Positions 2,536-45,897 of a stretch of DNA of 64,000 nucleotides are shown one piece after another. The DNA comes from Octopus vulgaris (Eukaryota), in assembly GCA_951406725.2 (NCBI GenBank), contig OX597824.1:99882001-99946000 (forward strand). Reading direction: 5' to 3'. Numbering within the stretch: the stretch's first letter is position 1; each line of letters begins with the position of its first letter. Position numbers and translations under genes: made by a program. A model generated the notes under the pieces. That model saw only the letters and a program-made list of their open reading frames with translations, made no database searches and was not told where the DNA came from.

Positions 2536-2641
2536 GTTACTGAAGAGAATCATATTGACTTCAGAGAACTGGACCAAGCCCACTCTTGCATGAAGAATGT
2601 TGCCAATAATGTGAATGAGAGTATACGAGCAAAGGAAATTG
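2536..2641 (+). CDS. RhoGEF exon 3 (end of DH domain)
   Basis: tttttAG|...G|GTaaat; VTEENHIDFRELDQAHSCMKNVANNVNESIRAKEI matches DH helix 6 (H.D...L..A...N.NE); phase 1 out. Confidence 0.92.
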
Positions 2642-4782: not shown

Positions 4783-5283
4783 TGCTGTGTGTTTTACTTT
4801 GCCTTATCTAGGGAATAGGGCATCTCAGCCATTTTGGGTTGGTCACAAGGGTATCACTGCTGCACCCTATAAATTAACGCCCTTAAGTTCCTCTACCTCA
4901 TATTTGTGATACCTCATGAAGTGAACATTACAAAGAAAAATGTTCAGATAACTTTTGTTTGTCCAACCTAGCATACTTTTCAGTGCTCTTATTATTATTA
5001 TTATTATTCATTTATTTATCTATTTACCTATAAAGCTTTGTCTATTTCATGTGATATGTTATAGTAAAGAAATCCAAATGTTCAGTTCTGTTTCAGTTTA
5101 TAGCACTCGTATTATTATTATTATTATTATTATTATTTGAGGTATTTCGTGTTGCAAGACAGTGTGTGAGAGAGAATTGTGATGTGGTAGGAGAGAAATG
5201 TGTTCGCATGGAGGATGATTCACTTGCGCTAAATGAGGATGCAAAGAGAGAAGCTTGGAGACGCCACTATGAAAGGTTGCTGA

Positions 5284-7005
5284 ATGAGGAAAATGAATAG
5301 GAATAAAGAGAGTCTGCCGAATGTTGACCCAACAGAGGGACCAGCTATCCGAGTTGATAGTTCCGTGGTAGCTAAGGCAATTAGAAGCATGAAGACAGGG
5401 AAAGCCCCAGGCCCATCAGGAATTACTGCAGAGATGCTCAAAATATCTGGTAGTGTCGGCTATAGCATAGTCACCCGTATAGTTAACCAGGTGATACACG
5501 AAGGAGTCATACCCAATGACTGGTGTAGCAGCATAATAGTCAACTGCTACAAAGGTAAAGGCGATGCCCTAGATACAAATAACTACAGGGGCATCAAGCT
5601 GTTGGATCAGGTAATGAAGGTTACGGAGAGGGTTATAGCCCAGTTAATTAGAGAGAGAGTTAGCTTAGATGATATGCAGTTTGGGTTCGTGCCAAGGAAA
5701 AGTACTACTGATGCTATATTCCTGGTAAGACAGCTGCAGGAGAAATACCTAGCCAAAGGTAAGCCCTTGTACCTGGCTTTTGTTGACTTAGAGAAAGCCT
5801 TTGACAGGGTCCCCCGATCCCTTATCTGGTGGTCAATGAGGAAACTAGGGATAGATGAATGGTTAGTGAGAGCTGTGCGAGCCATGTACAGAGACGCAGC
5901 TAGTAAGGTGAGGGTTGGCAACGAGTACAGTGAAGAATTCCGGGTAGAGGTTGGGGTCCACCAAGGTTCAGTCCTCAGCCCCCTCCTATTTATCATAGTC
6001 CTCCAGGCAATAACGGAAGAATTTAAGACAGGATGCCCCTGGGAGCTCCTATATGCTGATGACCTTGCTCTAATTGCTGAGTCACTATCAGAACTGGAGG
6101 AGAAGTTTCAGGTGTGGAAACAAGGATTAGAATCGAAGGGCCTTAGAATCAACCTAGCCAAAACCAAAGTCCTAATAAGTAGGAAGGTGGACCAACCACA
6201 AACGACTTCAGGTAGATGGCCCTGCTCGATCTGTAGAAAAGGTGTAGGTAGAAACTCTATAAGGTGCACCAAGTGTAAGCTATGGACACATAAGAGGTGC
6301 AGCAATGTCAAAGGTAGGCTAACTGGGAAGATAGTTTTCGTATGTGGCAGATGCTCAGGAGAAATAAACACTGGAAATGTGCAGAGACCAACTTCTACCA
6401 CGTTCCAGGGAGACAAACTAGAAGTAGTTGATAGCTTCCGCTACCTAGGAGACCAAGTTAGTAGCTGGGGTGGGTGTGCTGAAAGTGTAACTGCTAGAGT
6501 AAGAATAGCCTGGGCAAAGTTTAGAGAGCTCTTACCCCTGCTGGTGACAAAAGGCCTCTCGCTCAGAGTAAAAGGCAGACTTTATGATGCATGTGTACGT
6601 ACAGCCATGCTACATGGTAGTGAAACATGGGCCGTGACTGCTGAGGATATGCGTAAGCTCGCAAGAAATGAAGCCAGTATGCTCCGATGGATGTATAATG
6701 TCAGTGTTCATAATCGTCAGAGTGTAAGTACCTTGAGAGAAAAGTTGAACCTAAGAAGCGTCAGTTGTGGTGTGCAAGAGAGACGGCTGCGCTGGTATGG
6801 TCATATGACGAGAATGGCTGAAGATAGTTGTGTGCAAAAGTGCTACACCCTAGCAGTTGAGGGAACCTGTGGAAGAGGTAGACCCAGGAAAACCTGGGAC
6901 GAAGTGGTGAAGCACGACCTACGAACTTTAGGTCTCACCAAGGAAATGACTAGAGACCGAGACCTATGGAAGTATGCTGTGCGTGAGAAGACCCGGCAAG
7001 ACTAG
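5284..7005 (+). CDS. Non-LTR retrotransposon reverse transcriptase (RTE clade), endonuclease lost by truncation
   Basis: 573-aa ORF with all RT motifs and a C4HC3 zinc finger at 6223-6354; the true reading frame is broken just upstream at about 5300. Confidence 0.9.
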   Translation: MRKMNRNKESLPNVDPTEGPAIRVDSSVVAKAIRSMKTGKAPGPSGITAEMLKISGSVGYSIVTRIVNQVIHEGVIPNDWCSSIIVNCYKGKGDALDTNNYRGIKLLDQVMKVTERVIAQLIRERVSLDDMQFGFVPRKSTTDAIFLVRQLQEKYLAKGKPLYLAFVDLEKAFDRVPRSLIWWSMRKLGIDEWLVRAVRAMYRDAASKVRVGNEYSEEFRVEVGVHQGSVLSPLLFIIVLQAITEEFKTGCPWELLYADDLALIAESLSELEEKFQVWKQGLESKGLRINLAKTKVLISRKVDQPQTTSGRWPCSICRKGVGRNSIRCTKCKLWTHKRCSNVKGRLTGKIVFVCGRCSGEINTGNVQRPTSTTFQGDKLEVVDSFRYLGDQVSSWGGCAESVTARVRIAWAKFRELLPLLVTKGLSLRVKGRLYDACVRTAMLHGSETWAVTAEDMRKLARNEASMLRWMYNVSVHNRQSVSTLREKLNLRSVSCGVQERRLRWYGHMTRMAEDSCVQKCYTLAVEGTCGRGRPRKTWDEVVKHDLRTLGLTKEMTRDRDLWKYAVREKTRQD

Positions 7006-7159
7006 TCAGGCCATAACCCGTGGCCCCTACCTAGGACGTAGTCAGTCCACCTGTGCATACCTTCCTTCTTGTGACACTTGTGAAGACCTGTTGAGGCAAG
7101 TGAAAATCAAATCAAACAAAATCAAAATAGATGAAAATCAATGGAATTTGTATCTTTGT

Positions 7160-8575
7160 GGTACCAGTGCCGGTGGCACACAAGAATACCATCCGAACGT
7201 GGCCGTAGCCAGTACCGCACCGACTGGCCTCCATGCTGTGGGCACGTAACAATCACCATCCAATCGTGGCCGATCGCCAGCCTAATCTGGCTCCTGTGTC
7301 GGTGGCACATAAAAAACACCATCCGAGCGTGGTCGTCTGCTAGCCTTGTCTGGCACCTGTGTCGGTGGCACATAAAAACACCATCCGAGCGTGGCCGTTC
7401 GCCAGCCTCGTCTGGCACCTGTGTCGGTGGCACATAAAAAACACCATCCGAGCGTGGTCGTCTGCTAGCCTTGTCTGGCACCTGTGTCGGTGGCACATAA
7501 AAACACCATCCGAGCGTGGCTGTTCGCCAGCCTCGTCTGGCACCTGTGTCGGTGGCACATAAAAAACACCATCCGAGCGTGGTCGTCTGCTAGCCTTGTC
7601 TGGCACCTGTGTCGGTGGCACATAAAAACACCATCCGAGCGTGGCCGTTCGCCAGCCTCGTCTGGCACCTGTGTCGGTGGCACATAAAAACACCATCCGA
7701 GCGTGGTCGTCTGCCAGCCTTGTCTGGCACCTGTGTCGGTGGCACATAAAAACACCATCCGAACGTGGCCGTTCGCCAGCCTCGTCTGGCACCTGTGTCG
7801 GTGGCACATAAAAACACCATCCGAGCGTGGCCGTTCGCCAGCCTCGTCTGGCACCTGTGTCGGTGGCACATAAAAACACCATCCGAGCGTGGTCGTCTGC
7901 CAGCCTTGTCTGGCACCTGTGTCGGTGGCACATAAAAACACCATCCGAGCGTGGCCGTTCGCCAGCCTCGTCTGGCACCTGTGTCGGTGGCACATAAAAA
8001 CACCATCCGAGCGTGGTCGTCTGCTAGCCTTGTCTGGCACCTGTGTCGGTGGCACATAAAAACACCATCCGAGCGTGGCTGTTCGCCAGCCTCGTCTGGC
8101 ACCTGTGTCGGTGGCACATAAAAAGACCATCCGAGCGTGGTCGTCTGCTAGCCTTGTCTGGCACCTGTGTCGGTGGCACATAAAAACACCATCCGAGCGT
8201 GGCCGTTCGCCAGCCTCGTCTGGCACCTGTGTCGGTGGCACATAAAAACACCATCCGAGCGTGGTCGTCTGCCAGCCTTGTCTGGCACCTGTGTCGGTGG
8301 CACATAAAAACACCATCCGAACGTGGCCGTTCGCCAGCCTCGTCTGGCACCTGTGTCGGTGGCACATAAAAACACCATCCGAGCGTGGCACGTTCGCCAG
8401 CCTCGTCTGGCACCTGTGTCGGTGGCACACCTGTGTCGGTGGCACAAAACACCATCCGAGCGTGGTCGTCTGCCAGCCTTGTCTGGCACCTGTGTCGGTG
8501 GCACATAAAAACACCATCCGAGCGTGGCCGTTCGCCAGCCTCGTCTGGCACCTGTGTCGGTGGCACATAAAATCA
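7160..8575 (+). repeat. 62-63-bp minisatellite (about 22 units) in the LINE 3' UTR
   Basis: Unit CCATCCGAGCGTGGCCGTTCGCCAGCCTCGTCTGGCACCTGTGTCGGTGGCACATAAAAACA, largely alternating with a GTGGTCGTCTGC variant. Confidence 0.97.
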
Positions 8576-9320
8576 CCCACTACACTCTCGGAGTGGTTGG
8601 CGTTAGGAAGGGCATCCAGCTGTAGAAACACTGCCAGATCTGACTGGCCTGGTGCAGCCTTCGGGCTCCCCAGACACCAGTTGAACCGTCCAACCCATGC
8701 TAGCATGGAAAGCGGACGTTAAAGGATGATGATGATGATGATGATTATTATTAGTATTTATTCACCCATTTTATCTATAAAACTTTGTCTATCCTATACT
8801 GTATATTATAGCAAAGTTAAGAAACCCAAATGTTCGATTTTGTTTACTGTAGCCATAAATCTTGTTAATTTTAATCTCTTCATTTGTTTTGTTACCCACT
8901 CTCTTATCCAAATGTTCTATTGTTTCCTCTACTGTAGCCCTAATTCTTGAAAATTTCATATCTCTCTTTCTCTCTCGATGTCTATATATATTCGCTTTGT
9001 TGCCTACTACATTTTCACTCACTCATATTATGTCTGTATCTTTGCTTTCCCATGTTGAATGTTAATTAGCAGCTTTTGCTTTGTTTGTGGACACTTCACA
9101 TTGCTAGGGAATGAGGCAGCCAAGGTGTTTCGTTGTTTTCAGTGCACCCTCCCCCCACCACCTGCTCTGGAAATCTTCCTCATCTAACCTCTACCAGAAG
9201 TTTTTCTCCTAGCACCTCTAATGCTTACCTATATGGTACCCTCTCTCCTGCTTCCATCCATATCTAGTGACTATCTCTTAGTAAATGTAACAAAAATGTA
9301 CATGTGTGCTTTCTTTTCAG

Positions 9321-12300
9321 ATGCAAAATTCTGTCCCCAATCCCTGTGTCTCCCCAGCGCCTCCCCTCCACACCTTTAGAGTTCGCATACTTAATGTGAG
9401 TACATTGAAAGGTAGGTCTGGTGAGATTGTTGAGATGCTTGAGCAGAGACCTGTAGATTTAGCTGCATCCAAGAAATAATGTGGAGAGGCAAAGAGCATA
9501 GGTATAAGATTTACTGAGAGGGGAAAAGTGATAGAGTTTGGGGTGTGGGCAAACTCCTTGTGGAGAAGTGGGTCGATAAGATAATTGAGGTAGTCAGAGT
9601 TTGTGATAGAATACTTAAGCTTAGAATGGTGCTGTAACATGGAACAGCAACCATTATCTCTGCCTATGCCCCTCAGCCAGGTCTACCTGATGAACAGCAA
9701 GACTGGTTTTATGACACTCCCTTGCAGACTACCTCATCGATGAATGACAGGGACCTTCTCTTTATGGCTGGTGACTTCAATGGGAATGTTGGACAACATT
9801 CTGGTAGTTACCATAGTGTGCATGGTGGCAACGGATTTGGTTCCTGCTATGAGGAGGGAACCAAGCTGCTGGAGTTTTGTGATGCAAAGACCTTATGATA
9901 TGCAAAACTGACTTGAGGAAACCTACCAGTCCAGTGGGCACACTAGTTAAATTGACCACATTCTCACCAGGAAATGGGGAATGATGGCTGCTTATAAAGG
10001 CCAAAGCTTTCTCAGGTGAAGAATGCATGCCCTCCCCAGCATAGGTTAGTTGCCAGCGATTTCAAGATCAGGACTAAATGGCTGCCCAGAAGACAACCAG
10101 TGTAGAAAAGAAGGGTCTGGAAGCTTAAAGATCCTCTGAATGGACAGAGATTCAGAGACATATTACTTAAAGCATTTGACAAAAAAGAGAAGGATATAGT
10201 GACATATAATGTTGAGGACAACTGGAGGTTCCTTTGGGACAACTTGTTAAGGGATATGTGGCTGGTACAAAGTCTCCTCTCAACTGAAGGTGACATGGTG
10301 GTGGAACAATGTAGTTGACAGGGCCATTAGAAAAAGGAAACAGGCTTGGAAGGACTGGCAGTCTGGTGGTAGTAGGGAACTATATTAGATAGCCAGAAGG
10401 GAAGCAAGGAGACAGGTATACTTAGCCAGAGGGGAAGCAGTAAAGAAGTTTGCTAATGTTCTGTGCTGTGAGGACCAGAAACTTAAAGTGTTCCAGATTG
10501 CAAGACAGTGTATGAGAGAAAATTGCGATGTCATATGAGAGAAATGAGTCTGCAGGGATGACAGTTCACTTGCATTTAATGATACTGTAAAGAAAGAGGC
10601 TTGGAAATGCCACTATGAAAGGCTGCTAAATAAAGCGAATGAATGAGAGGAGGAGAGTCTGTCAAATGTTGACCCAACTGAGGGACCAGCTATCTGAATC
10701 GACAGTACCTTGGTAGATAAAACAATTAAGGATATGACCCATTAGGAATCACTAGTGAGATGCTTAAAATATCTGGCAATGTGGGTTATGGTCTAGTCAT
10801 CTGTATAGTTAACCAAGTGGTTTACAAAGTGTCATACACAATGACTGGTGTAGCAGCACCATAGTCAACTGGTACAAAGGTAAAGGTGATGCCTTGGATA
10901 GAAATTATTGCAAAGGTATCAAATTGTTGGATCAGGTGATGAAAATCATTGAGAAGGTCATAGCCCAACTAATTAGGGAGAGAGTTAGTCAAGATGAGAT
11001 GCAGTTTGGTTTTGTGCCAGGGAGAAGCACCACCAATGCTATATTTCTGGTAAGGCAGCTGCAGGAGAAATACATAGCCAAAGATAAACCTTGATACTTG
11101 ACTTTTGTTGGCTTGGAAAAAGCCCTTGATAGGGTCTTCTGCTCCATTATCTTGTGGTCAATGCAGGAACTAGGGCTAGATGGGTGGTTGGTGTGAGCTG
11201 TACAAGCCATGTACAGGCATACTGTCAGTAAGGTGAGGGTTGACAATGAGTATAGCAAAGAATTCAGGGTACAAGTAGGGGTTCACCAAAGGTCAGTCCT
11301 CAGCCCCCTCTTGTTCATCATAGTCCTCCAAGCAATAAGGCAAGCTGCCCCTGGGAGCTCCTCTATGCTGATGACCTTGTTCTTATAACTGAATCACTAC
11401 CAGAACTAGAGAAGAAGTTCTAGGTATGGAAACAAGGTCTAGAATCAAAGGGCCTTAGAGTTAACCTAGCAAAAACCGAAGTCTTAGTAAGTAGGAAGGC
11501 AGACAAATCACAAATCCTTTCGGGGAGATGGCCCTGCTCAGTCTGTAAAAAGGCGTAGGTAGAAACTCCATAAGATGTACCCAGTGTAAGCTATGGACAC
11601 ATAAATGGTGCAGCAATATCAGAGGAAGGTTAACAGGGAAAATAGTTTTTATGTGTGAAAGGTGCACAAGTACAATTAACACTAAAAATGTTCAGAAAAT
11701 AGATCCTATAACACGGCAGAGGGGAAAACTAGAAGTAATCAATAGCTTCTGTTACCTAGGTGACCAACTTAGTAGTGGGGGGGGGGGGGTGGATGCTCCA
11801 AGAGCATAGCTGCTGTAATAAGAATTAGTTGGGCAAAGCTAAGAGAGCTCCTATCTCTGCTGGTAACAAATGGTCTCTCTCTCAGAGTAAAAGGTATGAT
11901 GCCAGCATGTAAACAGTCCTGCTACACAGCAGTGAAACATAAGCTGTGGTGGCCAAGAACATGCACAGGCTAGTAAGGAATGAAGCTAGTATGTTCTGCT
12001 GGATGTGTAATGTCAGTGTGCATGCACAACAGAGTGTAAGTGTCCGAGAGAAAAATTGGGGATAAGAGGTGTTATACATGGTGTGCAAGAGAGACAACTA
12101 TGTGTATGGTCATGTAATGCATATGGAGGAGGACAGCTGTATGATGAAGTGCCACATTCTAACAGTGGAGGGAACCTGTGGAAGAGGTAGACAAGCTGTT
12201 GAAGCATGTTCTTCAAATATTGGGCCTCATGGAGACAATGACAAGTGACCAAGATCTTTGGTGATATGCTGTGCTTGAGAAGCCAAGTGAAATTGTAGTT

Positions 12301-13277: not shown

Positions 13278-16200
13278 CAGTGACTTCAGACTCCAGGCCA
13301 GAAGGATGCCAAGAAGCAGACTAATCTAGAAAAGAAGGATTTTGAAGCTTAAGGACCATTCATATGGTTAGAAAGGGAGGAGGAGCTACACACTTGTGAC
13401 ACAGAGGGCAACTGGGAATTCCTGTGGAACAGCTCTACTGAGTGCCATAGACCAAATCTGCAGATGGTGCAGAGTCCCATTAAGACCTAGGGCAATGTGA
13501 TGTTGGAACGATGTTGTAGACAGGGCCATTAGAATAAAGAAACAGGCTGGAAGGCCTGGAAGAGTGGGGGTAGCGGGGAACTATATTAAATAACCAGAAG
13601 GGAAGCTTAGAGACGAGTATACCTAGCCAAGGGAGAAGCAGAAAAGAAGTTTGCCTATGTTTAGTGACGTGAGGACCAAAGAACTGAAGTGTTTCAGATT
13701 GTAAGACAGTGTGTAAGAGAAAATTGTGATGTTATGGGAGAGAAATGTGACAGCATGGATGATGGTGCACTTGCATTTAATAATTCTACAAAGAAAGAGG
13801 CTTGGAAATGCCATTATGAAAGACTGCTGAACATGGAGAATGAATGGGAGGAGCAGAGTCTGCCATATGTTGACCCAGTTTAGGGACCAGCTACCCGAAT
13901 CGACAGTACCTTGGTAGATAAAGCAATTAAGGATATGAAGATAGGGAAATTCCTCAGCCCATCAGGAATCACCACTGAGATGCTTAAAATATCTGGTGGT
14001 GTGGGTTATGGTCTAGTCATTCGTTTTATAAATCAAGTGGTTCATGAAGGAGTCATACCCAATGACTGGTGTAGCAGCACCATAGTCAACTGGTACAAAG
14101 GTAAAGGTGATGCCTTGGATAGAAATAACATTGATTTACAAAAATTATTTTTGCTCTGAGGCAAGGATGTAAATCAGTGCTTTTTACTAATTTTGATGTG
14201 GTGAATTTGATTTTCTGAACAGTTTTGCTCTATCACCTCTGTTTTTCTTTTTGTTTTGTTTTCCCATATCCCATTTTAATTATACCTTATATAAATTCAA
14301 AATATGTGTTTATTTCATCTGTTACAAAGGCATATTACAGAAAAAATACAGCATAGATACAGGACATTGATGGACATTAATACAATACACACAAATCATA
14401 GTACAGCAGACAGAAGTGAGTTTTTTTTAATGATCTTGTGTGCTTTGCCTCCAGAATGTCACACAAGAGCATCCAGCAAAAGTCCCCCATCATGCTGGGG
14501 TTCCACTTGCTTTGGTAGTTGCTCTCCATCTTAGTAATATATTGGTGGAACCTTTCTTCATTCTCATCACTCACTGCTCTGAGCTTTGGAGGGAAGAGGT
14601 TGAAGTGGAAAAAGTGAATTTTCAGTGACATTCGACATCTCATATCTTCATAAGACTGTAACAACTTCTCAATACACTCTTGGTAATCTAGTACCCATGT
14701 GTTACCAAGGAAGCCATGGCAGATTGACTTTAATGCTTCTCATGCATTCAGTTCTTTTAAGGTAAGAAGCTCTGCAAAGTCCTTGTCCAATGAAGATGTC
14801 CTCCTTGAGCTTAGCAGAACTTGAAGTGGGAACAGAGTGCACAAGCGTTGGAAGGTAGCACCACTTTTATCCATGACTTTCATGAAATTCTTCATTAAAC
14901 CAAGCTTGATATGAATAGGAGAAAGAAGCACCTTGTTTATGTCCACCAGATAATTTTCTTGGACACTGTGTTCACCAGGCATGAAAGTGCTCCTAGATCC
15001 CCAGTCCTGCTTGTAGTGTCCCAGAGACAAAGAAAGCAACAGTACTTTGTGAAGCCTGCTTGCATACCCATAAGGAGCTCAATGACCTTGAAGCCCCGCA
15101 GAGACTCCACTGGTACCGGTTATATTTGACAGCTTCCAAAAGGAGTACCATATTGTCATACAACTCTTTCAGATGGACTCAGAAGGCAATGGAAATGTTG
15201 GGGTATTTATTCCCATTGTGCAGGAGCACAGCCTTCAAACTTTGCTCGGAAGAGTCTATGAAAAGATGCCGGTCTGAGGGATTGTGTGGGAAACCAAGAA
15301 AGCTAAACAAACCAGGGACATTTGTGCAGCAGCACAACCTGTTTCCCGTGTCTAAGAATGAAGCAAAGTCCTCGTTCCATGTCCTGAAACTGCTGATCCT
15401 TACATCTGCCTTGACCACGTTCCACTGTTTAAGCTGGGATGCCAGGAGCTCTGACTGCTGCTTAGATAGATACAAATCATGGGCAAAGTCATTCTGGTCT
15501 TCCTGTGTGGTCCAGTGTCTCCTGAATAAACAACAGAAATGTTGTCTTCAGAAGCGATCAACTTGGCAGGATCTCCCTCTGAAGGCATTTCTTCATCTGA
15601 TGAAAGAAAAAGGTCCTTATTTGGTGGGGGTGTAGGGACAGGAAGATAATCTGAGTAGGGAACAGGTTTCATAGCTGAGAAAAGGTTGGAATATTTGAAT
15701 TTTTTTTCAAGAAGCAATGAAACCTCTTACATCTGCATGGTTTTGTAGCTCTCTCCAGTCCACCGGGACAGCAAAGTTGAAGGCCGCTTTCTTGCCCTGC
15801 AGTCAGTCCATTGTAGCAGAGTTTACAACAGATGTGTGGGGTCCAAGATTTGTCCTGATCTTCAATTTTACAGTCAAAGTAATGGAAGTAGCAAGTTCTC
15901 AGGAGGGAAGTAATTGTTGCGCAACTGTTGTGAAATCCCCTCGTATTTCGGAGAATGAATTTACTTTGTTGATGCATCCTCGATGTTTTGAAGCCATTGT
16001 AGAGATGTATCATCTGTATCACAAAAATCTGGAAAACAAAATAAAAATTTATCATATATGTGGTTACGTGGATTGTCACAAAATCAGTAATGTATATCTC
16101 AAAAACTAGAGGTGATGAGTGAAAACTGGTTTTGATCTGAAATCAGCACCTCAAAATTAGGCTACAATAACTATTTTTATATTCGCCTCAATTTCTCTGT

Positions 16201-23034: not shown

Positions 23035-23745
23035 TGTTTTCATCACCATCACCACAATCATTGTTTAATGTCTGCTCTCCATGCTAGCATGGGTTAGACA
23101 ATTTGACTGGAGTTGATGGAGAGCTGCACCAGGTTCTTGTCTTATTTGGTAGGGTTTCTTCAGCTGGATGCCATTCCTAACACCAGCCACTCCAGGAATG
23201 TAATGGATGTTTTTATGTGCCACCAGCACAGGTGCCATTTAAATGATGTAGGCAACAACCATGACTATGATTGACAAGTGGGTGCCATTTACATTGTCCT
23301 GGCAACGGCCACAACTGCAATGCACAGGTGTCATTTGCATGGCACCAGCAGTGACCATGACAATTCATGGGTGCCATATGCAATAACTACAACTCATGGG
23401 TGCTGTTGACATGGAACCACCAACGATCATGATTCCCAGGTGCCAATGTACAGGATACCCTCAATGACCACGACTACAATGCACAGGTGTCATTTGCATG
23501 GCACTGGCATCAACTGCAACAATTCACAGGTGCCATGTACATAGTACCGTCAACAACCTCAACTATGATGCATGGGTGTCATTTATACGGCACTGGCAAT
23601 GAACGACTACGATTCACAGGTGCCATTTACATGACACTGGCATGGCCACAACTATAATTTCACTTGGCCTGACAAGTCTTCTCCCACACAGCGTATCGCC
23701 AGAGCTCTCAGTCACTTGTCATCACCTCTGTGAGGTCCAATGTTT
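23035..23745 (-). mobile_element. RTE-family 3' end, minus strand, with degenerate tandem modules of about 55 bp
   Basis: catcac tail, ggatgccattcc box, repeated caggtgccattt...ggcaac...actac units at 23230-23650. Confidence 0.8.
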
Positions 23746-33952: not shown

Positions 33953-36900
33953 AACCATTCGAGTGTGGCTGATGCCAGTGCTGCCTGACTGGCACCCGTG
34001 CTGGTGACATGTAAAAAGTACCATTTGAGCCTGGCCAATGCCAGGGCTGCCTGATCAATGCCAGGGCTGCCTGACTGGCACCCGTGCTGGTGACATGTAA
34101 AAAGTACCATTTGAGCCTGGCCAATGCCAGGGCTGCCTGACCAATGCCAGGGCTGCCTGACTGGCACCCGTGCTGGTGACATGTAAAAAGTACCATTTGA
34201 GCCTGGCCAATGCCAGGGCTGCCTGACTGGTACCCGTGCTGGTGACATGTAAAAAGTACCATTTGAGCCTGGCCAATGCCAGGGCTGCCTGACTGGCACC
34301 CGTGCTGGTGACATGTAAAAAGTACCATTTGAGCCTGGCCAATGCCAGGGCTGCCTGACTGGCACCCGTGCTGGTGACATGTGAAAAGTACCATTTGAGC
34401 CTGGCCAATGCCAGGGCTGCCTGACTGGCACCTGTGCTGGTGACATGTAAAAAGTACCATTTGAGCCTGGCCAATGCCAGTGTGCTGCCTGACTGGCACC
34501 CGTGCTGGTGACATGTGAAAAGTACCATTTGAGCCTGGCCAATGCCAGGGCTGCCTGACTGGCACCCATGCTGGTGACATGTAAAAAGTACCATTTGAGC
34601 CTGGCCAATGCCAGTGCTGCCTGACTGGCACCCGTGCTGGTGACATGTGAAAAGTACCATTTGAGCCTGGCCAATGCCAGGGCTGCCTGACTGGCACCCG
34701 TGCTGCTGATGACATGTAAAAAGTACCATTTGAGCCTGGCCAATGCCAGGGCTGCCTGACTGGCACCCGTGCTGGTGACATGTGAAAAGTACCATTTGAC
34801 CTGGCTAATGCCAGTGCTGCCTGACTGGCACCCATGCTGGTGACATGTAAAAAGTACCATTTGAGCCTGGCCAGTGCCAGGGCTGCCTGACTGGCACCCG
34901 TGCTGGTGACATGTAAAAAGTACCATTTGAGCCTGGCCAATGCCAGGGCTGCCTGACTGGCACCCGTGCTGGTGACATGTAAAAAGTACCATTTGAGCCT
35001 GGCCAATGCCAGGGCTGCCTGACCAATGCCAGGGCTGCCTGACTGGCACCCGTGCTGGTGACATGTAAAAAGTACCATTTGAGCCTGGCCAATGCCAGGG
35101 CTGCCTGACTGGTACCCGTGCTGGTGACATGTAAAAAGTACCATTTGAGCCTGGCCAATGCCAGGGCTGCCTGACTGGCACCCGTGCTGGTGACATGTAA
35201 AAAGTACCATTTGAGCCTGGCCAATGCCAGGGCTGCCTGACTGGCACCCGTGCTGGTGACATGTGAAAAGTACCATTTGAGCCTGGCCAATGCCAGGGCT
35301 GCCTGACTGGCACCTGTGCTGGTGACATGTAAAAAGTACCATTTGAGCCTGGCCAATGCCAGTGCTGCCTGACTGGCACCCGTGCTGGTGACATGTGAAA
35401 AGTACCATTTGAGCCTGGCCAATGCCAGGGCTGCCTGACTGGCACCCATGCTGGTGACATGTAAAAAGTACCATTTGAGCCTGGCCAATGCCAGTGCTGC
35501 CTGACTGGCACCCGTGCTGGTGACATGTGAAAAGTACCATTTGAGCCTGGCCAATGCCAGGGCTGCCTGACTGGCACCCGTGCTGCTGATGACATGTAAA
35601 AAGTACCATTTGAGCCTGGCCAATGCCAGGGCTGCCTGACTGGCACCCGTGCTGGTGACATGTGAAAAGTACCATTTGACCTGGCTAATGCCAGTGCTGC
35701 CTGACTGGCACCCATGCTGGTGACATGTAAAAAGTACCATTTGAGCCTGGCCAGTGCCAGGGCTGCCTGACTGGCACCCGTGCTGGTGACATGTAAAAAG
35801 TACCATTTGAGCCTGGCCAATGCCAGGGCTGCCTGACTGGCACCTGTGCTGGTGACATGTAAAAAGTACCATTTGAGCCTGGCCAATGCCAGGGCTGCCT
35901 GACTGGCACCCGTGCTGGTGACATGTAAAAAGTACCATTTGAGCCTGGCCAATGCCAGTGCTGCCTGAGTGGCACCCGTGCTGGTGACATGTAAAAAGTA
36001 CCATTTGAGCCTGGCCAATGCCAGGGCTGCCTGACTGGCACCCGTGCTGGTGACATGTAAAAGTACCATTTGAGCCTGGCCAATGCCAGTGCTGCCTGAC
36101 TGGCACCCGTGCTGGTGACATGTAAAAGTACCATTTGAGCCTGGCCAATGCCAGGGCTGCCTGACTGGCCACCCGTGCTGGTGACATGTAAAAAGTACCA
36201 TTTGAGCCTGGCCAATGCCAGGGCTGCCTGACTGGCACCCGTGCTGGTGACATGTAAAAAGTACCATTTGAGCCTGGCCAATGCCAGGGCTGCCTGACTG
36301 GTACCCGTGCTGGTGACATGTGAAAAGTACCATTTGACCTGGCCAATGCCAGTGCTGCCTGACTGGCACCCGTGCTGGTGACATGTAAAAAGTACCATTT
36401 GACCTGGCCAATGCCAGTGCTGCCTGACTGGCACCCATGCTGGTGACATGTGAAAAGTACCATTTGAGCCTGGCAAATGCCAGGGCTGCCTGACTGGCAC
36501 CCGTGCTGGTGACATGTGAAAAGTACCATTTGACCTGGCCAATGCAAGTGCTGCCTGACTGGCACCCATGCTGGTGACATGTAAAAGTACCATTTGAGCC
36601 TGGCCAATGCCAGTGCTGCCTGACTGGCACCCATGCTGGTGACATGTAAAAAGTACCATTTGACCTGGCCAATGCAAGTGCTGCCTGACTGGCACCCATG
36701 CTGGTGACATGTAAAAAGTACCATTTGAGCCTGGCCAATGCCAGTGCTGCCTGACTGGCACCCGTGCTGGTGACATGTGAAAAGTACCATTTGACCTGGC
36801 CAATGCAAGTGCTGCCTGACTGGCACCCATGCTGGTGACATGTAAAAAGTACCATTTGAGCCTGGCCAATGCCAGTGCTGCCTGACTGGCACCCGTGCTG

Positions 36901-39900
36901 GTGACATGTAAAAAGTACCATTTGACCTGGCCAATGCCAGTGCTGCCTGACTGGCACCCGTGCTGGTGACATGTGAAAAGTACCATTTGAGCCTGGCCAA
37001 TGCCAGGGCTGCCTGACCAATGCCAGTGCTGCCTGACTGGCACCCGTGCTGGTGACATGTAAAAAGTACCATTTGACCTGGCCAATGCCAGTGCTGCCTG
37101 ACTGGCACCCGTGCTGGTGACATGTGAAAAGTACCATTTGAGCCTGGCCAATGCCAGGGCTGCCTGACCAATGCCAGGGCTGCCTGACTGGCACCCGTGC
37201 TGGTGACATGTAAAAAGTACCATTTGAGCCTGGCCAATGCCAGGGCTGCCTGACTGGTACCTGTGCTGGTGACATGTAAAAAGTACCATTTGAGCCTGGC
37301 CAATGCCAGTGCTGCCTGACTGGCACCTGTGCTGGTGACATGTAAAAAGTACCATTTGAGCCTGGCCAATGCCAGGGCTGCCTGACTGGCACCTGTGCTG
37401 GTGACATGTAAAAAGTACCATTTGAGCCTGGCCAATGCCAGGGCTGCCTGACTGGCACCTGTGCTGGTGACATGTAAAAAGTAACATTTGAGCCTGGCCA
37501 ATGCCAGGGCTGCCTGACTGGCACCTGTGCTGGTGACATGTAAAAAGTACCATTTGAGCCTGGCCAATGCCAGTGCTGCCTGACTGGCACCCGTGCTGGT
37601 GACATGTAAAAAGTACCATTTGAGCCTGGCCAATGCCAGGGCTGCCTGACTGGCACCTGTGCTGGTGACATGTAAAAAGTACCATTTGAGCCTGGCCAAT
37701 GCCAGGGCTGCCTGATTGGCACCTGTGCTGGTGACATGTAAAAAGTACCATTTGAGCCTGGCCAATGCCAGTGCTGCATGACTGGCACCCGTGCTGGTGA
37801 CATGTAAAAAGTACCATTTGAGCCTGGCCAATGCCAGGGCTGCCTGACTGGCACCTGTGCTGGTGACATGTAAAAAGTACCATTTGAGCCTGGCCAATGC
37901 CAGGGCTGCCTGACTGGCACCTGTGCTGGTGATATGTAAAAAGTACCATTTGAGCCTGGCCAATGCCAGTGCTGCCTGACTGGCACCCGTGCTGGTGACA
38001 TGTAAAAAGTACCATTTGAGCCTGGCCAATGCCAGGGCTGCCTGACTGGCACCTGTGCTGGTGACATGTAAAAAGTACCATTTGAGCCTGGCCAATTCCA
38101 GGGCTGCCTGACTGGCACCTGTGCTGGTGACATGTAAAAAGTACCATTTGAGCCTGGCCAATGCCAGGGCTGCCTGACTGGCACCTGTGCTGGTGACATG
38201 TAAAAAGTACCATTTGAGCCTGGCCAATGCCAGGGCTGCCTGACTGGCACCTGTGCTGGTGACATGTAAAAAGTACCATTTGAGCCTGGCCAATGCCAGT
38301 GCTGCCTGACTGGCACCCGTGCTGGTGACATGTAAAAAGTACCATTTGAGCCTGGCCAATGCCAGGGCTGCCTGACTGGCACCTGTGCTGGTGACATGTA
38401 AAAAGTACCATTTGAGCCTGGCCAATGCCAGGGCTGCCTGACTGGCACCCGTGCTGGTGACATGTAAAAAGTACCATTTGAGCCTGGCCAATGCCAGTGC
38501 TGCCTGACTGGCACCCGTGCTGGTGACATGTAAAAAGTACCATTTGAGCCTGGCCAATGCCAGGGCTGCCTGACTGGCACCTGTGCTGGTGACATGTAAA
38601 AAGTACCATTTGAGCCTGGCCAATGCCAGGGCTGCCTGACTGGCACCTGTGCTGGTGACATGTAAAAAGTACCATTTGAGCCTGGCCAATGCCAGGGCTG
38701 CCTGACTGGCACCTGTGCTGGTGACATGTAAAAAGTACCATTTGAGCCTGGCCAATGCCAGTGCTGCCTGACTGGCACCCGTGCTGGTGACATGTAAAAA
38801 GTACCATTTGAGCCTGGCCAATGCCAGGGCTGCCTGACTGGCACCTGTGCTGGTGACATGTAAAAAGTACCATTTGAGCCTGGCCAATGCCAGGGCTGCC
38901 TGACTGGCACCTGTGCTGGTGACATGTAAAAAGTACCATTTGAGCCTGGCAAATGCCAGGGCTGCCTGACTGGCACCCGTGCTGGTGACATGTGAAAAGT
39001 ACCATTTGACCTGGCCAATGCAAGTACTGCCTGACTGGCACCCATGCTGGTGACATGTAAAAAGTACCATTTGAGCCTGGCCAATGCCAGTGCTGCCTGA
39101 CTGGCACCCGTGCTGGTGACATGTAAAAAGTACCATTTGAGCCTGGCCAATGCCAGGGCTGCCTGACTGGCACCCGTGCTGGTGACATGTAAAAAGTACC
39201 ATTTGAGCCTGGCCAATGCCAGTGCTGCCTGACTGGCACCCGTGCTGGTGACATGTAAAAAGTACCATTTGAGCCTGGCCAATGCCAGGGCTGCCTGACT
39301 GGCACCTGTGCTGGTGACATGTAAAAAGTACCATTTGAGCCTGGCCAATGCCAGTGCTGCCTGACTGGCACCCGTGCTGGTGACATGTAAAAAGTACCAT
39401 TTGAGCCTGGCCAATGCCAGGGCTGCCTGACTGGCACCTGTGCTGGTGACATGTAAAAAGTACCATTTGAGCCTGGCCAATGCCAGGGCTGCCTGACTGG
39501 CACCTGTGCTGGTGACATGTAAAAAGTACCATCTGAGCCTGGCCAATGCCAGGGCTGCCTGACTGGCACCTGTGCTGGTGACATGTAAAAAGTACCATTT
39601 GAGCCTGGCCAATGCCAGTGCTGCCTGACTGGCACCCGTGCTGGTGACATGTAAAAAGTACCATTTGAGCCTGGCCAATGCCAGGGCTGCCTGACTGGCA
39701 CCTGTGCTGGTGACATGTAAAAAGTACCATTTGAGCCTGGCCAATGCCAGGGCTGCCTGACTGGCACCCGTGCTGGTGACATGTAAAAAGTACCATTTGA
39801 GCCTGGCCAATGCCAGTGCTGCCTGACTGGCACCCGTGCTGGTGACATGTAAAAAGTACCATTTGAGCCTGGCCAATGCCAGGGCTGCCTGACCAATGCC

Positions 39901-41370
39901 AGAGCTGCCTGACTGGCACCCGTGCTGGTGACATGTAAAAAGTACCATTTGACCTGGCCAATGCCAGTGCTGCCTGACTGGCACCCGTGCTGGTGACATG
40001 TGAAAAGTACCATTTGAGCCTGGCAAATGCCAGGGCTGCCTGACTGGCACCCGTGCTGGTGACATGTGAAAAGTACCATTTGACCTGGCCAATGCAAGTA
40101 CTGCCTATCTGGCACCCATGCTGGTGACATGTAAAAAGTACCATTTGAGCCTGGCCAATGCCAGTGCTGCCTGACTGGCACCCGTGCTGGTGACATGTAA
40201 AAAGTACCATTTGAGCCTGGCCAATGCCAGGGCTGCCTGACTGGCACCCGTGCTGGTGACATGTAAAAAGTACCATTTGAGCCTGGCCAATGCCAGTGCT
40301 GCCTGACTGGCACCCGTGCTGGTGACATGTAAAAAGTACCATTTGAGCCTGGCCAATGCCAGGGCTGCCTGACCAATGCCAGAGCTGCCTGACTGGCACC
40401 CGTGCTGGTGACATGTAAAAAGTACCATTTGAGCCTGGCCAATGCCAGGGCTGCCTGACTGGCACCCGTGCTGGTGACATGTAAAAAGTACCATTTGAGC
40501 CTGGCCAATGCCAGGGCTGCCTGACTGGCACCCGTGCTGGTGACATGTAAAGAGTACCATTTGAGCCTGGCCAATGCCAGGGCTGCCTGACCAATGCCAG
40601 AGCTGCCTGACTGGCACCCGTGCTGGTGACATGTAAAAAGTACCATTTGAGCCTGGCCAATGCCAGGGCTGCCTGACTGGCACCCGTGCTGGTGACATGT
40701 AAAAAGTACCATTTGAGCCTGGCCAATGCCAGTGCTGCTTGGCTGGCACCCATGCTGGTGACATGTAAAAAGTACCATTTGAGCCTGGCCAATACCAGGG
40801 CTGCCTGACTGGCACCCGTGCTGGTGACATGTGAAAAGTACCATTTGAGCCTGGCCAATGCCAGGGCTGCCTGACTGGCACCCGTGCTGGTGACATGTAA
40901 AAAGTACTATTTGAGCCTGGCCAATGCCAGTGCTGCTTGGCTGGCACCCGTGCTGGTGACATGTAAAAAGTACCATTTGAGCCTGGCCAATGCCAGGGCT
41001 GCCTGACTGGCACCCGTGCTGGTGACATGTAAAAAGTACCATTTGAGCCTGGCCAATGCCAGTGCTGCTTGGCTGGCACCCGTGCTGGTGACATGTAAAA
41101 AGTACCATTTGAGCCTGGCCAATGCCAGGGCTGCCTGACTGGCACCCGTGCTGGTGACATGTAAAAAGTACCATTTGAGCCTGGCCAATGCCAGTGCTGC
41201 TTGGCTGGCACCCGTGCTGGTGACATGTAAAAAGTACCATTTGAGCCTGGCCAATGCCAGGGCTGCCTGACTGGCACCTGTGCTGGTGACATGTAAAAAG
41301 TACCATTTGAGCCTGGCCAATGCCAGTGCTGCTTGGCTGGCACCCATACTGGTGACACGTATAAAGCACC
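33953..41370 (+). repeat. 7.4-kb minisatellite of a 66-bp unit (about 110 copies) derived from the RTE 3' UTR module
   Basis: Unit CTGGCCAATGCCAGGGCTGCCTGACTGGCACCCGTGCTGGTGACATGTAAAAAGTACCATTTGAGC; continues directly into the family tail. Confidence 0.98.
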
Positions 41371-41525
41371 CCCTACACTCTGAGTTGTTGGCGTTAGGAA
41401 GGGCATCCAGCTGTAGAAATCTTGCCAAATGAGATTGGAGCTGGTGCAGCCTCCCAGCTTGCCAATCTTTAGTCAAACCCTCCAACCCATGTCAGCACGG
41501 AAAGCAGACATGATGCTGATGATGT
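41371..41525 (+). mobile_element. RTE-family terminal tail closing the large array
   Basis: ctacactct...ttggcgttaggaagggcatccagctgtagaaa...ccaacccatg...gatgctgatgatg. Confidence 0.9.
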
Positions 41526-41763
41526 TCATTATCTTCTGAAAAGCCATTCATAACCTGTGTTATTTTATTAACATTAATGGTGAAGGAATGGTTTGAAACA
41601 CTAGACTAAGTGCTTTGCTGGAAGTATTTACTTTCCTGCTCTTCTGTTCTCATTGTTTCCATCTTCCCTAAGTTGATAAAATAGATATTAATCTGACCAA
41701 CAACAAAGTTGTAAGTGATATAAAAAATCAGTTTTCTATCATATTTTTTTGCTTCTGTTTCAG

Positions 41764-42770: not shown

Positions 42771-45160
42771 TCATTTGATGAGGCTGCAAAGAGAGAGGTT
42801 TGGAGATGCCACTATGAAAGGTTGCTGAATAAAGAAAATGAAAGGGAGAAAGAGAGTATGCCGAATGTCGACCCAACAGAGGGACCAGCTATCCGAGTTG
42901 ACAGTACCTTGATAAATAAAGCAATTAAGAGTATGGAAACAGGGAAAGCCCCCGGCCCATCAGGAATTACTGCAGAGATGCTCAAAATATCTGGCAGTAT
43001 CGGCTATAGCCTAGTCACCTATATAGTTAACCACAAAGTCATACCCAATGACTGGTGTAGCAGCGCTATAGTCAACTGCTACAAAGGTAAAGGTGACGCT
43101 TTAGATACAAATAATTACAGAGGTATCAAGCTGTTGGATCAGGTAATGAAGGTCATGGAGAGGGTCTTAGCCCAACTAATTAGGGACTGAGTCGGTTTAG
43201 ATGAGATGCAGTTTGGGTTCGTGCCAAGGAAAAGCACCACTGATGCTATATTTCTAGTAAGACAGCTGCAGAAGAAGTATCTGGCTTTTTTTGACATGGA
43301 GAAAGCCTTTGACAGGGTCCCCCGATACCTTATCTGGTAGTCAATGAGGAAACTAGAGATAGATGAATGGTTAGTGAGAGCTGTGCAAGCCATGTACAGG
43401 GACGCTGTCAGTAAGGTGAGGGTTGGCAATGAGTACAGTGAAGAATTCAGGCTAGAGGTAGGGGTCCACCAGGGCTTAGTCCTCAGCCCCCTCCTATTTA
43501 TCATAGTCCTCCAGGCAATAACAGAGGAATTCAAGACAGGATGCCCCTGGGAGCTCCTCTATGCTGATGACCTTGCTCTAATTGCTGAGTCACTGTCAGA
43601 ACTAGGAGAAGTTTCAGGTGTGGAAACAAGGATTAGAATCGAAGGCCCTTAGAGTCAACCTAGCTAAAACCAAAGTCCTCATAAGTAGGAAGGCAAACCA
43701 CAAATCCCTTCAGGTAGATGGCCCTGCTCGATCTGTAGTGGAGGCGTAGGTAGAAAATCTATAAAATGTACCCAGTGTTAGCTATGGACACATAAGAGGT
43801 GCAGTAATATCAAAGGAAGGCTAACTTGGAAGATAGTTTTTGTATGTGGCAGATACTCTGGAGCAATAAACTCTGAAAATGTGCAGAGAATAGCTTCCAT
43901 CGCATTCCAGAGAGAAAAACTAGAAGTAGTTGATAGCTTCTGTTACCTAGGTGACCAAGTCAGTAGCGGGGGTGGGTGCGCTGAAAGTGTAGTTGCTAGA
44001 ATAAGAATAGCTTGGGCAAAGTTTAGAGAGCTCTTACCTCTGCAGGTGAAAAAGGGTCTATCACTCAGAGTAAAATGTAGACTGTATGATGCATGTGTAC
44101 GAACAGCCATGCTACATGGCAATGAAACATGGGCTGTGACTGCTGAGGACATGCGTAAGCTCACTAGGAATGAAGCCAGCATGATCCGATGGATGTGTAA
44201 TGTCAGTGTGCATACTCGACAGTGTAAATACCTTGAGAGAAAAGTTGGACCTAAGAAGCATCAGATGTGTGCAAGAGAGACAACTGCGCTGGTATGGTCA
44301 TGTGGCGAGAATGGATGAGAATAACTGTGTGAAAAAGTGCCATACCCTAGCAGTTGAGGGAACCTGTGGAAGAGGTAGACCAGGAAGACCTGGGATGAAG
44401 TGGTGAAGCACGACCTTTGAACTTTAGGCCTCACCAAGGAAATGACTAGTGATTGAGACTTGGAAATATGTTGTGCTTGAGAAGACCTGGCAAGTCATAT
44501 GAGACCATAACCTCGTGGCCTATGCCAGGGGTGTAACCAGCCCACTTATGCATACCTTTTCCTTCTTTGGACACTAAAACTCTGCTTGTGAAGACCTGTT
44601 GAGACAAGTGAAATCAAAATCAAATTTGATGACTGGCATCCGTGCTAGCGGGGTACAAAGAGCACCATACGAGTGTGATTGTTGACAGAGCAGCTAACCG
44701 GCTTCTGTTCCAGTGGTACATAAAAGGCACCATTTGAGTGTGATCGTTACCAGCGTTGCCTTACTGGCACTTGAGCCCCATGCTAGTAGGGTGCCAAGAG
44801 CACCATCTGAGCGTGTTCGTTGCCAGAGTGGCTAACTGGCTTCTGTGCTAGTGGCACATAAAAAGAACCATTCAAGCATGATCGTTACCAGCATCGCTTT
44901 ACTGGCACCTGTGCCGGTGGCATGTGTAAAAGATTCAAGCAAGGTTGTTGCCAGTACCACCTGACTGGCTCCGTGCCGGTGGCACGTAAAAGCACCCACT
45001 ACACTCTCGGAGTGGTTGGCGTTAGGAAGGGCATCCAGCTGTAGAAATTCTGCCAGATCAAGATTGAAGCCTGGTGCAGCCATCTGGTTCGCCAGCCCTC
45101 AGTCAAATCATCCAACCCATGCTATCATGGACAGCGGATGTTAAACAATGATGATGATGA
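42771..45160 (+). mobile_element. 5'-truncated RTE-PHD LINE with about 6 UTR modules
   Basis: ORFs 42600-44406 are RT pieces including YADD; (GAT)n tail at about 45160. Confidence 0.93.
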
Positions 45161-45897
45161 TTAGTCTTTGTGCATTATGTATGATGAAGACACTGGCCCA
45201 CTTCATTTAACAGTTGTAAGCCAATCAGGTTTAAGTATATTATGTAGAAACAAGACAACTATATAACTAACAAATATATCAAACCTGAAGTATTGAGTTC
45301 AAGAGGTTTCATGGACTTGAGCTTTAACATATTACTGGCTTGTCTATCATCTTACCTAATTGGTCTCAATAGGAACAATCCATTTATTATGAGGTTACAG
45401 ATATACCCATCTGGATATACTTCCCAGCATATATCCATATATACCATTAGATACTCTGTAATACCATGATATAGTAAACTTATTAAGAATGATATCTCCT
45501 TGGGTTTACAGGATTGTTAAATGAGAATTCTTTATAACTTTTAACAGTTTAAGTAACCACTAACATTTTCAGCTTTATGTGATGTTTTGATTGGCTGATA
45601 AAGTGTTTATCAAGAGTAATTAACTCATCTGAAAGTTAAACATGTTCTAGGTTGAACACTTTACATTACCACAGTGATAAAAGGGAAGTTTTATGAAAGA
45701 GATCTAATCAAACAAGTAGTATACAAATATTACTACAACTGGAAAGGAGAAGCTGTTTTGGATGTATCATTTTCCTAAACAACTACGTGATTTGTCTAAT
45801 CTTCAATTGACCGCTCAACAATTTTGTTTGATTTTTTTTCTTGATATAATTGATCAAATTAACTGATTTGAATTTTACTTTTTTTGTGAATATTTAG

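What the first reader, a model, noticed from the sequence alone, without database searches (positions are those of the whole stretch)
7160..8575. The repeated module looks like a conserved structured RNA: hairpin plus compact H-type pseudoknot with an A-rich loop
Seen on the sense strand: (i) a hairpin GCCAG-loop-CTGGC with a freely varying loop (GCCAGcctcgtCTGGC here; TGCCAGtgctgcctgaCTGGCA in the big array). (ii) Directly after it, stem 1 YRTGY/GCAYR encloses YGGTG, which can pair with CACC(A) located after a TAAAAA(G) linker. Examples: CGTGC-cGGTG-GCACG-taaaag-CACC (44972), CATGC-tGGTG-GCATG-taaaaag-CACC (3388), TGTGT-cGGTG-GCACA-taaaaaa-CACC (7296). This is the topology of small H-type pseudoknots with an A-rich minor-groove loop. 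Inference: a tandemly amplified cis element for RT recognition, nuclease resistance or RNA stabilisation in an element lacking poly(A). Caveat: part of the apparent covariation is also what CpG decay would produce, and stem 1 has a mismatch in the big array.
Basis: partly seen in the sequence, partly recalled or inferred. Interest (0 to 1): 0.72.

Follow-up and report, generated by a model that had tools for sequence, protein, structure and literature searches.

The report
Retrotransposon-tail minisatellite; pseudoknot unproven
A 62-base piece from the tail of a broken jumping gene is repeated about 21 times in a row; it is predicted to be able to fold into a hairpin and a small RNA knot, but its sequence changes show no sign of preserving the knot, so the array is likely an ordinary repeat expansion.

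Summary
The hairpin and pseudoknot pairings can be drawn as described, but covariation does not support them. The stretch is a 62-nt tandem array (about 21 units) in the 3' UTR of a 5'-truncated RT+PHD LINE, RTE-type by architecture. Over 37 modules, the stem-1 'compensatory' changes equal independent CpG decay (13 Watson-Crick cases against 12.7 expected); stem 2 shows none. All 109 units of the big array break stem 1. The two halves of the module are an old 26-nt tandem duplication, and the linker resembles the ORF tail. Dimer and 9-unit block repeats point to amplification at DNA level. The module was not found in 90 loci of related elements. The structure that does covary across those relatives is the terminal stem-loop before the (GAT)n tail (8685-8723), the better candidate for RT recognition. 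It ends a tail whose first part matches the 5' UTR of intact relatives. Left open: 1-5 modules ride in source elements, the hairpin arms are steadier than their loop, and a compact A-rich pseudoknot is rare by chance (2 of 400 shuffles). Dead copies cannot refute the fold; I put a functional pseudoknot at about 20%.

The parts
5140..7005 (+). 5'-truncated LINE ORF remnant (RT + PHD finger); frame change near 5290; no endonuclease part
   Evidence: ORF 5284-7005; Pfam RVT_1 E 3.9e-32, PHD E 2.3e-4 at its cut-off margin; full-length homologues of about 1050 aa with endonuclease, 48-56% identical; tblastn and frames
7006..7165 (+). 5' part of the 3' UTR, shared with the copy at 44502-44624
   Evidence: blastn 73%
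7166..7290 (+). two degenerate modules (cores at 7166 and 7232)
7241..8577 (+). 62-nt tandem array, about 21 units, alternating A/B units (124 nt) and a duplicated 9-unit block; one 17-nt duplication at 8411-8446
   Evidence: TRF; unit list; 7429-7802 vs 7989-8360: 371 identities, 1 mismatch, 2 gaps
7401..7416 (+). example hairpin half of a unit (GCCAG, 6-nt loop, CTGGC)
   Evidence: sequence; folding probability about 0.4-0.66 by context
7295..7321 (+). example 'pseudoknot' half: stem 1 (5 bp), 1-nt loop, stem 2 (4 bp), A-rich loop; homologous to the hairpin half
   Evidence: descriptor; 15-21 of 26 identical between halves
8575..8640 (+). segment matching a motif that lies in the 5' UTR of intact related LINEs and in SINE-like elements
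   Evidence: motif upstream of the endonuclease in L002, L031 and twice in L081, 4 of 17 motif copies; alignment A4
8685..8723 (+). 3'-terminal stem / A-rich internal loop / stem-tetraloop, covarying among relatives; likely RT recognition site
8725..8745 (+). (GAT)n tail running into a (TAT)n tract
   Evidence: sequence
33990..41370 (+). second array of the same module, 66-nt unit, 109 cores, stem 1 broken in every unit, 13-unit block duplication, same terminus at 41368-41532

Best explanation
The stretch is a 62-nt tandem array inside the 3' UTR of a truncated RT+PHD LINE, likely amplified in place at DNA level from one UTR module, and its pseudoknot is likely a by-product of a duplicated, partly palindromic 26-nt unit rather than a selected fold. 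Shown: the module is two homologous 26-nt halves plus a 16-nt linker; a longer repeat (about 160 nt) in older copies runs from the ORF tail to the module; different insertions share the same ordered module variants. Inferred: the 62-66-nt unit arose from the longer one by internal deletion; source elements carried 1-5 modules and spread them by retrotransposition; two inserted copies then grew to 21 and 109 units by slippage or unequal exchange. Inferred: the RT recognises the covarying terminal stem-loop and (GAT)n tail, not the modules. The hairpin arms may be under mild constraint in source elements.
For: Stem-1 end pairs behave as independent CpG decay (13 vs 12.7 of 37, p 0.52); permutation p for S1 0.74, S2 0.55, hairpin 0.053; covariation score at shuffle level. 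Big array fails the pseudoknot in 109 of 109 units; a G>A change that breaks stem 1 is in 7 of 39 independent modules. A/B dimers, a 9-unit and a 13-unit block duplication, and CpG-decay states fixed in every unit. Halves 15-21 of 26 identical, at most 5 of 5000 shuffles reach this in each of 9 comparisons. The 160-nt unit aligns with ORF tail plus module. Five of the unpaired linker's non-CpG sites (0, 1, 5, 9, 10) differ in only 5 of 95 cells, as steady as the stems, and S1+S2 do not differ from loop 3 (p 1.0). Units of both arrays fold no better than shuffles (z -0.32, -0.15). No module in 90 related loci. The terminal stem-loop covaries (17 cells changed on both sides; score 0.489 vs 0.211; 0 of 500 shuffles); its model finds 15 window termini at E<0.01 and no module on the sense strand. 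Retrotransposon 3' UTRs are a recorded source of tandem repeats (PMC9659126, passages).
Against: Inserted copies decay neutrally, so missing covariation is weak evidence about the active element. Hairpin loop 24% vs arms 5.9% divergence (p 1.7e-8; arms used for row selection). An A-rich compact pseudoknot turned up in only 2 of 400 shuffles (descriptor chosen after seeing the fold). Among the variant rows shown for three high-copy contig sets, the non-CpG ones in the core fall on loop 1 (C>A, 5-14%), loop 3 (A-run length 14-32%, G>T 4-12%) or keep a U-G pair (10-13%); none is shown in stem 2, but 23 rows were hidden. Rough energies put the pseudoknot (-7.0 to -10.7 kcal/mol) level with the 6-bp hairpin (-8.6). 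15 of 16 termini keep at least one module upstream. My global alignments of the 62- and 66-nt units to the 160-nt unit were scattered and do not show the single deletion cleanly.
Confidence: 0.65

Rival explanations
1. The hairpin plus compact pseudoknot is a selected cis element of the source LINE RNA that would bind the element's own protein (for example the PHD-like zinc finger) or stabilise a transcript without poly(A), much as the A-clade R2 pseudoknot does; only the long arrays are incidental.
For: Geometry close to luteoviral pseudoknots; 2 of 400 by chance; variable loop between steady arms; recurrent variants at loop 1 and loop 3 (loop 1 = A in 3 of 39, which fits the pseudoknot and not the 6-bp hairpin); a module stands 51-54 nt before the motif in 14 of 16 termini; precedent in R2 (PMC12180492, passages).
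Against: No non-CpG compensatory change; stem-1-breaking G>A in 7 of 39; absent from 90 related loci that retrotranspose with a short UTR; about 150 nt from the tail, whereas the R2 fold lies in the last 65 nt.
Confidence: 0.2
2. The module core is the element's former 3'-terminal recognition stem-loop, left inside after the LINE captured a new bipartite tail by read-through, and now vestigial.
For: In simple copies the first hairpin begins about 20 nt after the stop codon, where relatives have their terminal stem-loop (0-80 nt after the protein match ends); five core-versus-8579-terminus alignments were printed and four land on the terminal stem-loop, best 2 of 1000 shuffles; two variant cores keep the same CTAG loop.
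Against: Only 3 of 18 core-terminus comparisons reach p<0.05; the terminal stem-loop model scores no module on the sense strand at E<=5; no outer stem in the module.
Confidence: 0.08
3. The module belongs to the captured 5'-UTR piece, a structure that would normally sit upstream of the conserved motif (promoter, processing or ribozyme remnant).
For: In L002 a clean 7+7-bp H-type pseudoknot lies just upstream of the same motif in the 5' UTR of an intact relative; the last module is always followed by the motif.
Against: One clear case among 17 motif copies; module model does not hit L002; no 5' end of the host's own element is in the window; no Rfam ribozyme hit.
Confidence: 0.05
4. The module is a self-cleaving ribozyme or an exonuclease-resistant RNA that would release unit-length RNAs.
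For: Tandem arrangement and pseudoknot potential only; several RTE families are reported to carry 5' ribozymes (PMC5786205).
Against: No Rfam family at gathering score in the window or at E<=10 over 7000-8760; the 5 weak hits over 44400-45200 are unrelated; cleavage inside the 3' UTR would separate the ORF from the priming tail (inference).
Confidence: 0.02

Closest known systems
Tandem repeats born in retrotransposon 3' UTRs (Ogre/PisTR-A, HeT-A/18HT, cetacean L1 satellite, chicken CR1/HinfI; PMC9659126, passages)
   Same: Array confined to the 3' UTR of a retroelement, short in most copies and long in a few; unit includes ORF-tail sequence as in the CR1 case.
   Different: Host element is RTE-type; arrays here reach 1.3 and 7.4 kb, not satellite size; no RTE case in the passages read.
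Bipartite RTE-derived non-autonomous elements and SINE tails (PMC5786205, parts 1-4 of 5 read)
   Same: The last 165 nt join an internal piece of an RTE-type 5' UTR to an RTE-type 3' end with a microsatellite tail.
   Different: Here the bipartite unit is the 3' end of ORF-bearing copies themselves; the motif is not the Ceph-domain piece as far as a text search shows (0 hits in the one supplement).
Stringent-type LINE 3' stem-loops (PMC3747384, passages)
   Same: The terminal stem-loop at 8685-8723 has compensatory changes, fixed loop letters and a 3' microsatellite.
   Different: This describes the terminus, not the repeated module.
A-clade R2 3' UTR pseudoknot-hinge-stem (PMC12180492, passages)
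   Same: Small pseudoknot potential with an A-rich linker in a non-LTR 3' UTR.
   Different: R2's fold is single, within the last 65 nt, shared by diverged species and rescued by compensatory mutation; the module is repeated, about 150 nt upstream, lineage-limited and without covariation.
Luteoviral P1-P2 frameshift pseudoknots (PLRV; PMC5416846, passages)
   Same: About 26 nt, 1-2-nt loop 1, A-rich loop crossing stem 1.
   Different: Lies after the stop codon, so no frameshift role; stem 1 has U-A/U-G pairs where PLRV's is all G-C.

Membership tests
RTE-clade LINE | single ORF with AP endonuclease and RT | tested here: met
   Full-length homologues of about 1000-1130 aa carry PF03372 + PF00078; intact single ORFs in L002, L080, L081; degenerate endonuclease part in the window copy at 9375. 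This copy is truncated.
RTE-clade LINE | 3' end in a short tandem repeat instead of poly(A) | tested here: met
   (GAT)n in the window; microsatellite tails in relatives
RTE-clade LINE | RT groups with RTE in a phylogeny | not tested
   No named reference RT set was at hand; the clade label rests on architecture and recall.
Transposon-derived minisatellite | unit homologous to a dispersed element, amplified in place with higher-order blocks | tested here: met
Bipartite RTE-derived tail | 5'-UTR fragment joined to the 3' end without the ORF between | tested here: met
   motif 207-298 nt before the endonuclease match in L002, L031, L081 (twice); terminal stem-loop about 80 nt after it in the window
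Conserved H-type pseudoknot RNA | both stems can form with feasible loops | tested here: met
   21 of 21 here, 0 of 109 in the big array, 9 of 42 in the dispersed set
Conserved H-type pseudoknot RNA | compensatory changes beyond CpG decay | tested here: not met
   low power because the copies are dead
Conserved H-type pseudoknot RNA | fold shown by probing | not testable with these tools
   no RNA raw reads were offered
A-clade R2-type 3' pseudoknot-hinge-stem | within the terminal 65 nt and shared across diverged relatives | tested here: not met
   last core ends at 8577, tail starts near 8725; 0 hits in 90 loci
Luteoviral frameshift pseudoknot | lies within translated, overlapping ORFs | tested here: not met
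   starts 160 nt after the stop at 7005
Known ribozymes, riboswitches and xrRNAs in Rfam 15 | match to a family model | tested here: not met
Stringent-type 3' recognition stem-loop (terminus 8685-8723) | covarying stem-loop next to the 3' repeat | tested here: met
   11 of the 12 training rows were read off a pairing descriptor, so percent paired is partly built in

The most novel reading that the evidence does not exclude
A very high-copy RTE-type LINE family rebuilt its 3' UTR by capturing a bipartite (5'-UTR + 3' stem-loop) tail and evolved, from a 26-nt duplication, a new luteovirus-sized pseudoknot with an upstream hairpin that it carries in 1-5 copies as a protein-binding or stabilising element: a structured RNA caught at birth, with hundreds of natural variants to test.
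Probability: 0.2. Interest if true: 0.6.

Novelty: new member of a known kind. Interest (0 to 1): 0.27.

Why it matters
As it stands, it is a clear example of CpG decay mimicking covariation, and of a LINE 3' UTR seeding minisatellites. The more useful by-products are a covarying 3'-terminal stem-loop shared by RT+PHD LINEs about 50% apart in protein, directly testable as the RT recognition site, and a LINE whose own 3' end is a bipartite SINE-like unit. If the pseudoknot proved functional, it would be a second non-LTR clade after A-clade R2 with a 3' UTR pseudoknot, and one whose origin by duplication can be traced.

Tried and rejected
Whole-genome alignment: no genome is held. Rfam: nothing at gathering score in the window or in 20 related loci; nothing meaningful by E-value. 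Viral contigs: 0 matches to the tail motif, no relative of the protein. Module model R2 on L001-L090 (90 of 96 loci; the six left out are distant bacterial RT hits): 0 hits. A fuzzy core pattern on all loci gave one hit (L029), judged chance. The tail motif is not the Vhc domain or in the searched supplements of two SINE papers (one file not searchable) and was in only two unrelated papers by full-text search (listing only). Identity with RTE-2_OV (PMC9115989) could not be tested: no sequence match in the 8 supplements searched, 4 not searched; that element is described with a C2H2 finger and a microsatellite UTR. Host: no close named homologue (best 73%, unnamed; named ones are a hydrozoan, amphioxus, a clam and fishes); 'octopus' is my recall, not a tool result. 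RNA ends: only contigs were offered for RNA runs, so cleavage or stall sites could not be looked for; the one raw DNA run laid only 22 reads and was not used. Earlier scan notes: nothing returned. Rows dropped: 2 hairpin halves; 3 degenerate or variant cores, and 10 more rows for the hairpin counts; A3 holds 33 modules with a recognisable hairpin, and MAFFT misplaces stem 2 in short-A-run rows, so one search is the better stem-2 test. L084 is misaligned in A2, which lowers its counts.

Full report
What is there. The stretch lies between the stop codon of a 573-aa RT+PHD reading frame (5284-7005) and a 165-nt terminus ending in (GAT)n (8575-8745). The copy is cut at about 5140 and has a frame change near 5290, so it is dead. 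Full-length homologues, 48-56% identical, are single ORFs of about 1050 aa with an AP endonuclease. With the microsatellite tail this is RTE architecture; no tree was built. The host is an animal; my recall says octopus, but no call shows it. The element is very high copy: 16 termini by motif in 64 kb, and 36,009-79,409 contigs laid on a 236-nt piece in each of three runs with different organism labels.

The observation. TRF gives a 62-nt array at 7241-8577 and a 66-nt array at 34135-41370. A fuzzy search finds 172 cores: 21, 109 and 42 elsewhere. The quoted pairings are correct. The pseudoknot descriptor is met by 21 of 21 units here, 0 of 109 in the big array, and 9 of 42 in a set of 40 dispersed modules plus one per array. 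A compact pseudoknot occurs in 31 of 400 shuffles of a 231-nt stretch, with an A-rich loop in 2 of 400. The nested minimum-energy fold of a CpG-intact module is two hairpins, with stem 1 extended to 6 bp over a GGU triloop (z about -1.3). Rough bookkeeping puts the pseudoknot at -7.0 to -10.7 kcal/mol against -8.6 for that hairpin, depending on the assumed penalty. Array units fold no better than shuffles (z -0.32 and -0.15).

Covariation. The two end pairs of stem 1 are CpG on both arms in the least decayed copy (44972). All nine combinations of CG, TG and CA occur. Both pairs are Watson-Crick in 13 of 37 modules; shuffling gives 12.7 (p 0.52). Permutation p-values are 0.74 for stem 1, 0.55 for stem 2 and 0.053 for the hairpin. 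The pair counter agrees (score 0.171 vs 0.168). Stem 2 has no compensatory change in the anchored alignment. A G>A change breaks the closing pair of stem 1 in 7 of 39 modules, against 1-3 of 39 at three other G sites.

Conservation. Non-CpG divergence from the majority is 5.9% in hairpin arms, 24% in the hairpin loop, 12% in stem 1, 8.4% in stem 2, 10% in loop 3, and 12.8% over the terminus with a median site of 6.7%. The arms were used to select rows. Five non-CpG sites of the unpaired linker differ in 5 of 95 cells, while five others vary widely. So only the loop-versus-arm contrast hints at constraint. In the three contig sets, shown core variants are CpG changes (11-22%), C>A in loop 1 (5-14%), a longer A run (14-32%), G>T in loop 3 (4-12%) and a C>T that keeps a wobble (10-13%); 23 rows were hidden. 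This mildly favours the pseudoknot.

Origin of the module. The hairpin half and the pseudoknot half align without gaps, 15-21 of 26 identical, at most 5 of 5000 shuffles reaching that in each of 9 comparisons. A partly palindromic unit duplicated in tandem yields alternating complementary words, so stems come cheaply (inference). In older copies the repeat is about 160 nt and runs from the ORF tail to the module. The 16-nt linker of the short unit resembles the start of that repeat, which suggests an internal deletion; my global alignments did not show one clean deletion. Other periods (17, 20, 43, 86, 138) occur too. Separate insertions share ordered module variants, and chains of 1-5 cores precede 13 of 16 termini; two have the long arrays and one has none. 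Short arrays therefore rode in source RNAs.

Growth of the long arrays. Units here alternate A/B, and a block recurs nine units later (371 identities, 1 mismatch, 2 gaps). TG and CA decay states are fixed in all units. The big array repeats a 13-unit block and is broken in stem 1 throughout. This is stepwise DNA-level amplification of mutated units, indifferent to the fold (inference). Retrotransposon 3' UTRs are a known source of such repeats (PMC9659126, passages).

Relatives. 96 loci were fetched; 26 had sequence after the ORF end. Most have short UTRs. A module model found nothing in 90 loci. A terminal stem-loop is shared: outer stem, 3-nt and A-rich internal loops, 5-bp stem, tetraloop. 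On 12 rows, 17 cells change on both sides and the score is 0.489 against 0.211 (0 of 500); rows were chosen by pairing and several are close kin. A model of it gives 42 hits at E<=0.05 in the 90 loci, 11 of them training rows, and 15 window termini at E<0.01, but no module on the sense strand. Stem-loops of this kind are typical of stringent-type LINE ends (PMC3747384, passages). This is the likelier RT signal.

The tail. Its first part carries a motif found 207-298 nt upstream of the endonuclease match in L002, L031 and twice in L081, 4 of 17 copies; the others are in SINE-like elements or unplaced. The terminus is thus a 5'-UTR piece joined to a 3' end, as in bipartite RTE derivatives (PMC5786205, parts 1-4 of 5), here serving as the end of ORF-bearing copies. 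Capture by read-through is my inference.

Known or new. No Rfam family matches. The geometry resembles the PLRV pseudoknot (PMC5416846, passages) and the setting resembles A-clade R2 (PMC12180492, passages), but position and covariation tests fail for both. Searches listed no description of this module; passages of PMC9115989, PMC13282606, PMC8967140 and PMC4758252 had none. The library lacks most subscription papers, and Repbase and Dfam were not available, so the family itself may well be catalogued.

Verdict. A real but ordinary LINE-UTR minisatellite (0.65). A functional pseudoknot in the source element remains possible (0.2). Interest 0.27.

Noticed in passing
window 8685-8723 and 42 hits in L001-L090: Covarying 3'-terminal stem / A-rich internal loop / stem-tetraloop shared by RT+PHD LINEs about 50% apart in protein; not matched by Rfam.
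   Followed up: yes
window 8575-8640; L002 229, L031 3503, L081 200 and 4007: A 12-nt motif nearly invariant between the window's LINE tail, 5' UTRs of intact relatives and SINE-like elements. Its loop could pair with a downstream TGCY in 11 of 16 window copies and 5 of 17 copies in relatives (chance about 9-13% each), a second small pseudoknot candidate; 11 of the 12 misses in relatives look like one kin group.
   Followed up: partly
L002 about 183-218: Clean 7+7-bp H-type pseudoknot descriptor hit just upstream of that motif in the 5' UTR of an intact relative; no Rfam match.
   Followed up: partly
L082 (minus strand, about 2310-2510): tRNA-like head followed by the 5'-UTR motif, a stem-loop and a (CAT)n tail: looks like an RTE-dependent SINE inside a bacterial MAG contig, so likely contamination.
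   Followed up: no
window 23270-23660 (minus strand): A 43-44-nt tandem array made of the hairpin half alone.
   Followed up: partly
window 44634-44670 and 44772-44808: Variant cores in which GGTG and CACC close a simple hairpin and the upstream stem has a CTAG loop like the terminal stem-loop.
   Followed up: partly
window 2537-2641: A spliced exon with a weak RhoGEF match (E 0.039, below cut-off); the element may sit in an intron on the same strand.
   Followed up: partly
window 4994-5137 and 8741-8845: The element sits in a (TAT)n tract between two 74%-identical flanks of about 105 nt.
   Followed up: no
L003, L080, L085 3' UTRs: A different, longer nested 3' structure followed by an A-rich stretch before the microsatellite tail.
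   Followed up: no
window 14377-16142: Fragments of reading frames on both strands that look to me like a broken DNA-transposon gene (recalled resemblance, not searched).
   Followed up: no
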